A stretch of DNA of 16,212 nt from positions 1 through 16,212 of the IMG/VR virus record IMGVR_UViG_2529293223_000015; one strand, 5' to 3'. Shown piece after piece: positions 1 to 1,436 of this stretch. Every line of letters begins with the position of its first letter. Within the stretch, counting starts at the first letter, position 1. The position numbers are program-made. The stretch comes from a virus. Lineage: Duplodnaviria; Heunggongvirae; Uroviricota; Caudoviricetes.

Positions 1-1436
1 TTAACGCGTATTTTTCAGCGACTCCTGTGCAAAATACGCTGTTGCTTTTTTTAATATATCTCGCTCAAGGCGAGCTTCATTTAACGCCTTACGCAGTTGC
101 AGAATTTGAGATTCCAGTTCAGCCACCGTGCGGGAACCAGGAGTACCGAGCCCTTTTCTGGCGGCGGTAACCCATTGTCCTAAAGTGCCTTCAGGAAGGG
201 ATAATCGGGAAGCGCCTTCACTGGAAAGTTGATTTTCAAGAACCGTTCTGACAGCTTCGGCTTTGAACTCTTTAGAGTAACGTTGGGTTTTTCTGCTCAT
301 TATTAGCTCCTTCTGATGCCATTCTATTTCAGGAAGGAGTGTCCGTTAAACTCAGGCTACCTCAGTCTTTTCCGGTGTGTCCGTGACATACAGTCCATAC
401 ACCAATGATATCTTTGTATGGTATGTAGCTGACACCTTCCAGACCATCGTTACCACCTGGGCCAGTGATTAACACAGATGCTATAGCAACAGCCCCGCCA
501 CCAATAGCAACTGCAACAGCCTTGCGTAATGATGGCGACATTATTCACCTCTCGCAGCCTTACGCTTATCTTCTCTTATTTTGAAATACAGATTCGTCAG
601 ATAAGTCAGAAGCCCCAGAAGCAGACTTCCCAGCACACCAATCGCAGCCCACTGTGACGGACTGACCTGATCCAACCACTGCAAAAACCAGTAGCCGGCA
701 CTGCCGGCGGAGGTGCCGTAGGCAATGCCTGTTGATATTTTTTCCATCTGATACATATCCGCCCCCCCAGACAGACCTGTGCTATCGGAAAGAAAAAAGG
801 CCATCAACAAAACTCTGATGGCCTGAATCACCTTTACCAATATTGTATGAAAAAACACGCACGTCTAATTGACAATAATTTTCATTTCCATTAAAAAAGA
901 TCGCGTAGCATTCTTAATTCATGAGGAACTTTACCCGCCAGCAATCTGAGTAGCGAAAGCTGTTCATCCCCAATGTTTTTGCTGGCGGGTCCTTTTTTCT
1001 ACGGTCCTCCTCCCCGGAGGGGGCATTTCATTATTTTTCTAATCATTACTGGTGAGAAGGCGGAAGAAAAAGCCAGTTCTTCGCCCCTAAATAACAGCAT
1101 GATTCCAGTCCATGCAAAATCTGATTTCCAGCTCACACATACCGAGCGCTGTACAAAAAACCGCCAGCCAAGGCAGTTAAGAGTGTGTTCCCGGGGTTTG
1201 CTTAGAATATTTTGTAAGTTGTCCGAAGAGATATTTACAACACCAGAATGATGAATCATCAGTCCCCTGCCAGAGGTTCACTACGTAACCTGACCGACAA
1301 TGCACCATTCTGGTGCTGAAAAAAGAGCACTGGAACTGCAACAAAACAACATCACAGAACAGGAGATGGTAAGGAGTCAGACATTCCCACACAATATTGT
1401 GTCAGTGCAAATAACAACCTTCGTCTCAAATCTCGC

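What the first reader, a model, noticed from the sequence alone, without database searches (positions are those of the whole stretch)
1..541. Lysis cassette inactivated: SAR endolysin cut at codon 59 by an IS600-like element that supplies the stop codon
The endolysin frame reads 59 codons from the TAATG-coupled start and ends at TGA, the first three bases of the IS terminus (TGAGG...). The catalytic lysozyme domain and any Rz/Rz1 genes are displaced or lost. Together with the IS911 hit and the missing early region this marks a lysis-defective, domesticated prophage remnant.
Basis: seen in the sequence. Interest (0 to 1): 0.4.

Follow-up and report, generated by a model that had tools for sequence, protein, structure and literature searches.

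The report
IS600-truncated prophage endolysin gene stub
A phage lysis gene in a decayed Shigella-type prophage ends after 59 codons at an IS600 insertion sequence, because 1.36 kb next to an IS600 copy that was already there has been deleted; this is ordinary IS-driven genome decay.

Summary
On the minus strand, an intact phage-21-type pinholin gene (541-756) overlaps through TAATG with an R21/RrrD-type SAR endolysin gene. That gene runs 59 codons (365-541) and stops at TGA, the first three bases of the IS600 left end (364-362).

The inferred history needs correcting. This IS600 copy has no 3-bp target duplication: GAC on the left, GTG on the right. Four other IS600 copies each have one. Beyond the IS lies chromosomal ygcN from nucleotide 407, not the rest of the endolysin gene. 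The matching ygcN 5' half, ending in GTG next to another IS600, lies about 192 kb away on the same contig.

Two sister genomes (CP026845.1, CP026877.1) carry the same remnant as holin, R (165 aa in CP026845.1), Rz/Rz1, HNH, IS600, ygcN 3'. The window lineage lacks exactly the 1,362 bp between R codon 59 and that IS600. So R codons 60-165 and Rz/Rz1 were deleted, not displaced.

The prophage was already a remnant bounded by IS600 copies. Here it also carries an IS911 insertion and a Mu-like prophage insertion. "Lysis-defective remnant" is supported; "domesticated" is not. This is ordinary Shigella-type IS decay and of low interest.

The parts
1..364 (-). Left 364 bp of an IS600 copy. The left inverted repeat is at 364..338 and orfA is at 300..1 (99 aa, with a 3-bp in-frame deletion that removes Ile27). 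The window starts inside the IS. The full copy is 1,261 bp in L004.
   Evidence: (PF01527). It differs at 3-6 substituted positions plus the 3-bp deletion from 1,264-bp IS600 copies that RefSeq annotates as 'IS3-like element IS600 family transposase'.
362..541 (-). Truncated R21/RrrD-type SAR endolysin ORF. It has 59 phage-derived codons (541..365) and a TGA stop (364..362) supplied by the IS600 terminus.
   Evidence: It is identical to codons 1-59 of the rrrD gene in L001, L029 and L031.
541..756 (-). Intact class II holin gene of the phage 21 S type (pinholin family). It encodes 71 aa with the dual starts Met1 and Met4. Its stop overlaps the endolysin start (TAATG).
   Evidence: (PF04971, 121 bits, profile positions 1-63 of 64).
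1437..1747 (-). Four prophage tRNA genes upstream of the holin gene: Gly-TCC, Thr-TGT, Arg-TCT and a CAT anticodon.
   Evidence: The homologous block in E. coli VL40 is annotated tRNA-Gly/Thr/Arg/Ile.
2401..3649 (+). IS911 (1,249 bp) with a 3-bp target duplication, GTT on each side. It is a simple insertion that splits an ORF6N-domain gene into a 5' part at 3714..3650 and a 3' part at 2400..1899.
   Evidence: Sister genomes read straight through the site (GTCATGACAACAGAGCTG).
4195..4590 (-). Q-type antiterminator gene of the lambdoid remnant. A pR'-like promoter match (4190..4161) and a terminator-like site (4099..4083) lie downstream of it.
   Evidence: (PF06530).

Best explanation
The stub is the 5' end of a phage-21-type SAR endolysin gene (rrrD-like) in a decayed lambdoid prophage of a Shigella-type genome. 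It did not arise from a simple insertion into an otherwise intact cassette.

Shown: an ancestor already carried an IS600 copy that joined the prophage, just downstream of holin-R-Rz/Rz1-HNH, to the 3' part of chromosomal ygcN. That junction came from earlier exchanges between IS600 copies. The original ygcN::IS600 duplication (GTG) is now split between two IS600 copies about 192 kb apart.

Shown: in the window lineage, the 1,362 bp between R codon 59 and the left end of that IS600 are absent. This segment holds R codons 60-165, Rz/Rz1, HNH and the start of the next ORF.

Inferred mechanism of the deletion, two options:
- Slightly favoured: a second IS600 inserted after codon 59, and homologous recombination between the two direct copies removed the segment between them.
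- Alternative: the resident IS600 transposed intramolecularly into R and deleted the adjacent DNA.

Inferred consequence: the 59-residue product keeps the SAR membrane segment and the E-X8-D-X5-T motif but lacks about 64% of the lysozyme fold. No spanin gene remains. The cassette therefore cannot degrade the cell wall or disrupt the outer membrane. The pinholin gene is still intact.
For: - Breakpoint and IS ends.
- No target duplication at this copy (GAC versus GTG), while four other IS600 copies have ATC, GAC, AAC and ATA duplications.
- The far flank is ygcN from nucleotide 407 of 1,272.
- A predicted reciprocal product, ygcN residues 1-136 plus VR and a stop, exists exactly (EGI92497.1). 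It lies on the same two contigs, and its IS600 left flank is GTG.
- Sister genomes CP026845.1 and CP026877.1 are colinear with the window lineage at 99.4-99.9% identity. They carry the identical IS600-GTG-ygcN 3' junction with holin, R, Rz (with embedded Rz1) and HNH to its left. Exactly 1,362 bp are absent from the window lineage.
- Apart from one private change in one sister, the window IS600 differs from the sister copies only within its first 260 nt (deletion of 142-144, G260C). The same 3-bp deletion is present in the other IS600 copy examined in the same genome.
- The window's left flank, GGAAAAGAC, resembles the flanks of two bona fide IS600 insertions, GGAAAAAAC and GGAGAGGAC.
Against: - The direction of change (deletion here rather than a gain in the sisters) rests on parsimony from two sister genomes, without a phylogeny.
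- The whole assemblies could not be searched, so a second copy of the lost segment elsewhere in the genome is not formally excluded.
- The two differences that suggest a hybrid IS could also come from gene conversion or later mutation, so the sub-mechanism remains open.
- Loss of function of the 59-residue stub is inferred, not measured.
Confidence: 0.85

Rival explanations
1. Simple IS600 insertion into an intact endolysin gene. The rest of R and Rz/Rz1 would lie just beyond the far end of the IS, with a 3-bp target duplication.
For: The break sits exactly at an IS600 terminus. The flank resembles other IS600 target sites.
Against: The far end of the IS abuts ygcN nucleotide 407, and the flanks are GAC and GTG. 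Sister genomes have the same IS600-ygcN junction with an uninterrupted R-Rz-HNH segment to its left.
Confidence: 0.03
2. Displacement rather than loss. An inversion or translocation between IS600 copies moved R codons 60-165 and Rz/Rz1 to another locus in the same genome.
For: This genome has clearly undergone exchanges between IS600 copies. The two halves of ygcN lie 192 kb apart, each next to an IS600.
Against: - In sister genomes the IS600-ygcN 3' junction already exists with R-Rz-HNH directly to its left. The window state therefore differs by a clean 1,362-bp gap next to the same IS.
- An exact-sequence look-up of the predicted 105-aa R 3' ORF found it only in unrelated assemblies.
- The IS600 next to the ygcN 5' half is followed by a VasL fragment, not by R 3'.
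Confidence: 0.05
3. Reverse polarity. The truncated state is ancestral, and the sister genomes regained R 3'-Rz-HNH by recombination with another prophage.
For: Lambdoid prophages recombine often. The holin/R region occurs in several prophage backgrounds.
Against: This needs a donor that already carries R-Rz-HNH-IS600 in the same arrangement, which would itself be the ancestral state. Both sisters also lack the IS911 and Mu-like insertions, which fits them being the less decayed state.
Confidence: 0.05
4. Domesticated module. The intact pinholin gene, with or without the 59-residue SAR peptide, is kept by selection for a host function such as a membrane-depolarising suicide or defence switch.
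For: The holin ORF and its dual-start motif are intact, and the Q gene and a pR'-like promoter match are still present. The stub ORF is identical in several assemblies.
Against: - Identity across assemblies is expected for recent clonal descent.
- The late operon is also interrupted by IS911.
- The surrounding remnant is being eroded by IS600, IS911 and a Mu-like element.
- No test of selection was possible.
Confidence: 0.04

Closest known systems
Phage 21 lysis cassette S21-R21-Rz/Rz1 (pinholin plus SAR endolysin) and its E. coli prophage homologue rrrD
   Same: - The holin matches the P21 holin S family over its full length and has the dual start.
- The holin and endolysin genes are coupled through TAATG.
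- The stub aligns at E about 1e-32 to residues 1-59 of the solved structures 3HDE and 4ZPU (RrrD).
- It carries an Ala/Gly-rich N-terminal segment and the E-X8-D-X5-T motif. The motif and the SAR criteria are as described in PMC9239132.
   Different: Only 59 of 165 codons remain. Rz/Rz1 are absent from the locus. The stop codon comes from IS600.
IS600 (IS3 family), one of the five insertion sequences expanded in Shigella genomes
   Same: It has the terminal repeats TGAGG...CCTCA, orfA and orfB, and only a few substitutions relative to annotated IS600 copies. PMC7373316 describes IS600 expansion in Shigella and gene loss through interruption, deletion and rearrangement between IS copies.
   Different: This copy is 1,261 bp, with a 3-bp in-frame deletion in orfA. 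It lacks a target duplication because its two flanks come from different loci.
The same prophage remnant in sister genomes CP026845.1 and CP026877.1
   Same: The order helicase, RusA, Q, ORF6N, tRNAs and holin is colinear at 99.4-99.9% identity, and the IS600-GTG-ygcN 3' junction is identical.
   Different: The sisters keep R (full length in CP026845.1), Rz/Rz1 and HNH, which is 1,362 bp more. They lack the IS911 insertion and the Mu-like prophage.
IS600 insertion in the spanin ('lysis protein') gene of an EHEC prophage (E. coli EH2252, NZ_AP027176.1)
   Same: IS600 disrupts a gene of an S21/rrrD-type lysis cassette.
   Different: There it is a simple insertion with an ATC duplication in the Rz-like gene. 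rrrD is intact and both halves of the target gene are present.

Membership tests
R21/RrrD-type SAR endolysin (Pfam PF00959, phage lysozyme) | N-terminal weakly hydrophobic, Ala/Gly-rich SAR segment | tested here: met
   Residues 8-27 read [20 protein letters not shown]. They align to the N-terminal residues of 3HDE and 4ZPU with few differences. The criterion is as described in PMC9239132.
R21/RrrD-type SAR endolysin (Pfam PF00959, phage lysozyme) | Catalytic motif E-X8-D-X5-T | tested here: met
   E35, D44 and T50 are present in the 59-residue stub. The motif is as in PMC9239132.
R21/RrrD-type SAR endolysin (Pfam PF00959, phage lysozyme) | Complete lysozyme domain (about 165 aa; Pfam profile of 125 positions) | tested here: not met
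   Only profile positions 3-27 of 125 are matched. Residues 60-165 are absent. This is a gene fragment, not a functional family member.
Phage 21 S-type class II holin (pinholin), Pfam PF04971 | Full-length family match, with the dual start Met1/Met4 | tested here: met
   121 bits over profile positions 1-63 of 64. The N-terminus reads MYQMEK.
Phage 21 S-type class II holin (pinholin), Pfam PF04971 | Forms small lesions that depolarise the membrane and release a SAR endolysin | not testable with these tools
   This needs expression experiments. It is inferred here from homology only.
Complete Gram-negative lysis cassette (holin, endolysin, spanin) | Spanin genes (Rz with embedded Rz1) downstream of the endolysin gene | tested here: not met
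   IS600 and then ygcN follow the stub. In sister genomes a 154-aa Rz with an embedded Rz1 lipoprotein ORF occupies the deleted segment.
IS600 (IS3 family) | Terminal inverted repeats TGAGG...CCTCA, a length of about 1,264 bp, and orfA/orfB | tested here: met
   The copy is 1,261 bp in L004. The imperfect repeats span 27-29 nt. orfA is 99 aa, and an orfB with an rve domain follows. It shows 3-6 substitutions plus the 3-bp deletion against annotated IS600 copies.
IS600 (IS3 family) | 3-bp direct target duplication flanking a simple insertion | tested here: not met
   The flanks are GAC and GTG. Four control copies have perfect 3-bp duplications. The element is IS600, but this copy is not a simple insertion.

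The most novel reading that the evidence does not exclude
Codon 59/60 of R21-type endolysin genes might be a recurrent IS600 target. Five short contigs from other assemblies carry the same 59 codons in a different upstream context and end exactly at the GAC. The site also resembles two other IS600 target flanks. If confirmed, Shigella/EIEC lineages would be repeatedly and specifically disarming prophage lysis while keeping the pinholin gene. That could reflect selection against prophage-induced lysis or for a non-lytic killing module.
Probability: 0.07. Interest if true: 0.3.

Novelty: already known. Interest (0 to 1): 0.1.

Why it matters
It matters little beyond annotation. The 59-codon ORF should be annotated as an rrrD-type pseudogene fragment, and ygcN as split. 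The prophage should be annotated as a non-inducible, lysis-incompetent remnant bounded by IS600.

The locus is a clean worked example of how IS600 copies erode Shigella-type genomes in steps: insertion, exchange between copies, then deletion next to a copy. It also shows that a gene ending at an IS terminus need not mean a simple insertion. Checking the target duplication and comparing sister genomes gave a different history.

Tried and rejected
- An exact search for the R'-IS600 junction in one-genome-per-species contigs found nothing.
- No complete E. coli genome in the collection carries this junction. The single full-coverage hit was two separate pieces in an EHEC prophage where IS600 sits in the Rz-like gene.
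- I first expected either a large deletion or a reciprocal inversion with R 3' next to the ygcN 5' half. The ygcN 5'-IS600 junction exists but is followed by a VasL (type VI secretion) fragment, not by R 3'.
- A homology search with the ygcN N-terminus returned only unrelated fragments. The exact-sequence look-up of the predicted 138-aa product was what succeeded.
- The predicted 105-aa R 3' ORF exists in the collection, but only in unrelated contexts: an IS2/IS600-disrupted R in CP026831.1 and frameshifted R genes.
- A search of the window for the canonical Mu end sequence, with up to 3 mismatches, found nothing. The Mu-like boundary was placed by comparison with sister genomes instead.
Absence of the lost segment from the rest of the genome is therefore not directly shown.
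- The E. coli VL40 prophage, which has an intact cassette, sits next to yecD/aspS. It has a different Q/nin region, so it served only as a sequence comparator.

Full report
**1. What is in the window**

All relevant genes are on the minus strand.

- A 71-codon ORF at 541..756 (MYQMEKIST...) matches the Pfam family 'Bacteriophage P21 holin S' over its whole length. The score is 121 bits over profile positions 1-63 of 64, and the ORF has Met1/Met4 dual starts.
- Its TAA stop overlaps the ATG of the next ORF (GAATAATGTCG, shared base 541). That ORF, 362..541, has 59 sense codons followed by TGA.
- The 59 residues align to residues 1-59 of the solved lysozymes 3HDE and 4ZPU (RrrD) at E about 1e-32. 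They also pass the Pfam Phage_lysozyme threshold, but cover only profile positions 3-27 of 125.
- The residues include an Ala/Gly-rich segment (residues 8-27) and E35-X8-D44-X5-T50. These are the SAR-domain character and the lysozyme triad motif described in PMC9239132.
- Downstream, 1..300 encodes an IS3-family OrfA (PF01527). The sequence from 364 downwards is the IS600 left end, TGAGGTAGCCTGAGTTTAACGGACACT.

**2. The breakpoint is exact**

- Four independent IS600 copies in E. coli genomes, annotated there as IS600 family, are 1,264 bp long. They begin TGAGG, end CCTCA, and each carries a perfect 3-bp target duplication: ATC, GAC, AAC or ATA.
- An intact rrrD in E. coli VL40 is identical to the window through ...GGAAAAGAC. 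It then reads ATCATGCCT where the window reads TGAGGTAGC.
- The phage sequence therefore ends after codon 59 (GAC, 367..365), and the stop codon is the first three bases of IS600.

**3. The proposed check fails, and that is informative**

- The window starts inside the IS, so I recovered the far side from public assemblies that encode the identical 59-residue ORF.
- The first 10,541 bases of the window match AFGE01000047.1 with no mismatch, and PSSR01000003.1 carries the same junction.
- In both, the IS600 copy is 1,261 bp. Its flanks are GAC on the left and GTG on the right, so there is no target duplication.
- The DNA beyond the IS is not the endolysin gene. It is chromosomal ygcN, starting at nucleotide 407 of 1,272, followed by ygcO, ygcP, ygcQ, ygcR, ygcS, ygcU and ygcW.

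**4. Where the other half of ygcN went**

- If IS600 had first inserted into ygcN with a GTG duplication, the 5' half should encode residues 1-136 plus Val-Arg and then a stop from the IS end.
- That exact 138-residue protein exists (EGI92497.1). Its accession is in the same series as the stub (EGI92717.1) and the ygcN 3' fragment (EGI92714.1).
- It lies on the same two contigs, about 192 kb from the window junction. Its IS600 left flank is ...TCTGTG|TGAGG.
- The original GTG duplication is therefore split between two IS600 copies.
- The second copy is followed by a VasL (type VI secretion) fragment, then amiC, argA and recD. Several exchanges between IS600 copies have reshuffled this region.

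**5. Sister genomes give the history of the endolysin gene**

- The ygcN 3' fragment, whose start lies in the IS, also occurs in the complete genomes CP026845.1 and CP026877.1.
- There the same prophage remnant reads: integrase, IS600, DnaB-type helicase, RusA, Q, ORF6N (187 aa), four tRNAs, holin, R, Rz (154 aa, with an embedded Rz1 lipoprotein ORF), HNH endonuclease (116 aa), the first 24 codons of another ORF, IS600, GTG, ygcN 3'.
- R is the full 165 aa in CP026845.1. In CP026877.1 it has a changed C-terminus and is read as a 187-aa ORF.
- These loci are colinear with the window lineage at 99.4-99.9% identity, apart from three differences:
  - The window lineage lacks exactly 1,362 bp between R codon 59 and the IS600 left end.
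  - It has IS911 inserted in the ORF6N gene (window 2401..3649, GTT duplication).
  - It has a Mu-like prophage end abutting the 3' end of the helicase gene (about 5424-5430).
- The IS600-ygcN junction therefore predates the truncation. The endolysin 3' part, Rz/Rz1 and HNH were deleted next to that IS. They were lost, not displaced.

**6. Mechanism (inferred)**

Two routes give this product.

- Route a: a second IS600 inserts after codon 59, and recombination between the two direct copies removes the DNA between them.
- Route b: the resident IS600 transposes intramolecularly into R and deletes the adjacent DNA.

I slightly favour route a, for three reasons. None of them is decisive.

- Apart from one private change in one sister, the window copy differs from the sister copies only in its first 260 nt (deletion of 142-144 and G260C).
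- The same 3-bp deletion is present in the other IS600 copy examined in this genome. This is what a hybrid element would look like.
- The left flank, GGAAAAGAC, resembles two genuine IS600 target flanks, GGAAAAAAC and GGAGAGGAC.

**7. Functional reading**

- The stub keeps the SAR segment and the triad residues but lacks residues 60-165, so loss of muralytic activity is inferred.
- No spanin gene remains at the locus.
- The holin gene is intact.
- Q (4195..4590), a pR'-like promoter match (4190..4161) and a terminator-like site are present. IS911 now lies between them and the lysis genes.
- In the sister genomes the remnant already lacks head and tail genes at this locus and is bounded by IS600 copies.
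- 'Lysis-defective prophage remnant' is therefore well supported. 'Domesticated' has no support from anything tested here.

**8. Comparison with what is known, and verdict**

- The names that sources give to these proteins are Shigella boydii, Shigella flexneri and E. coli.
- PMC7373316 reports that IS1, IS2, IS4, IS600 and IS911 expanded in all Shigella species. It also reports that they cause gene loss by interruption and by deletion or rearrangement between IS copies.
- Other R21-type endolysin genes seen in passing are also inactivated, by IS2/IS600 or by frameshifts. In an EHEC prophage, IS600 sits in the Rz-like gene.
- This is an ordinary, already-understood kind of event. Its value lies in correct annotation and as a clear example of stepwise IS-mediated erosion.
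- Interest is 0.1 and novelty is 'already known'.
- The only mildly novel possibility left open is a recurrent IS600 target at codon 59. It is suggested by five short contigs from other assemblies that end exactly at the GAC in a different prophage background.

Noticed in passing
window 2401-3649 (+); flanks 2398-2400 and 3650-3652: An IS911 copy (1,249 bp) with a clean 3-bp duplication (GTT) splits an ORF6N-domain gene that is antirepressor-like by its domain. Sister genomes CP026845.1 and CP026877.1 read through the site uninterrupted. This simple insertion contrasts with the rearranged IS600 copy.
   Followed up: yes
window ~5424-5430 (junction); com/mom-like genes ~5506-6440; Mu-like tail genes up to 16212: The right end of a Mu-like prophage (Mom, Com, tail fibre genes, Gp48) abuts the 3' end of the lambdoid replicative helicase gene. 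Sister genomes have an intact 398/463-aa helicase gene there. The canonical Mu end sequence was not found, and the exact terminus and any 5-bp duplication were not resolved.
   Followed up: partly
window 3752-4167 (-): Four Rfam matches above gathering score lie between Q and the ORF6N gene: isrK (4078-4154), C4 antisense RNA (3969-4052), c4-a1b1 target sites (4115-4167) and sRNA-Xcc1 (3752-3835). They look like a P1 immI-like or IsrK-like regulatory RNA module placed upstream of an antirepressor-type gene in the late operon.
   Followed up: no
L020 / L018 10001-11670 (AFGE01000047.1 ~45-46 kb; PSSR01000003.1 ~444 kb): The ygcN 5' half (138-aa product ending in IS-derived Val-Arg) lies next to a second IS600, followed by a truncated VasL (type VI secretion) gene and then amiC, argA and recD. 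The GTG duplication of the original ygcN insertion is split between this copy and the window copy, 192 kb apart. A third junction (VasL 5'-IS600-prophage late genes) is predicted but was not found.
   Followed up: partly
L005, L006, L007, L009, L010 (short contigs from five other assemblies): These contigs encode the identical 59 residues and end exactly at the GAC of codon 59. They share only 346-383 nt (98.4-99.1% identity) with the window, and the three long enough to show it have a different upstream context. This may mean the same break occurs in another prophage background, which would suggest an IS600 hot spot or an older shared allele.
   Followed up: partly
window 159-161 region of IS600 orfA (IS positions 142-144); L020 and L016 IS600 copies: A 3-bp in-frame deletion in IS600 orfA (LSISEG becomes LSSEG, giving a 99-aa OrfA) is shared by the window copy, by the second IS600 copy in the same genome and by one copy in CP026845.1. 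It is absent from the sister copies at the homologous position.
   Followed up: partly
window 1671-1747 (-): ARAGORN calls the fourth prophage tRNA as Met (CAT anticodon). RefSeq annotates the homologous gene in E. coli VL40 as tRNA-Ile. The four-tRNA block sits where the tRNA genes of lambdoid late regions usually lie.
   Followed up: no
window 758-768 (homopolymer tract just upstream of the holin start at 756): The sequence around the C/G run upstream of the holin start codon differs between the window/AFGE (CCGCCCCCCCAGAC), PSSR (CCCGCCCCCCCAGAC) and the sister genomes (CCCGCCCCCGAC). This could affect the ribosome-binding region, or it could be a sequencing artefact.
   Followed up: no
L024 8560-10010 (CP026831.1); L025 and L026: Other R21-type endolysin genes are inactivated in different ways. 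In CP026831.1, an IS600 end and an IS2 flank a short piece of R around codons 31-38. In L025 and L026, single-base indels occur in the SAR-coding region. This suggests repeated independent decay of this gene in Shigella-like genomes.
   Followed up: partly
L015 20339-22090 (E. coli VL40, NZ_CM177011.1): The closest prophage with an intact lysis cassette carries the type III effector gene ipaHd after its tail fibre genes. It sits next to yecD/aspS, which points to an EIEC/Shigella-type lineage for this phage family.
   Followed up: no
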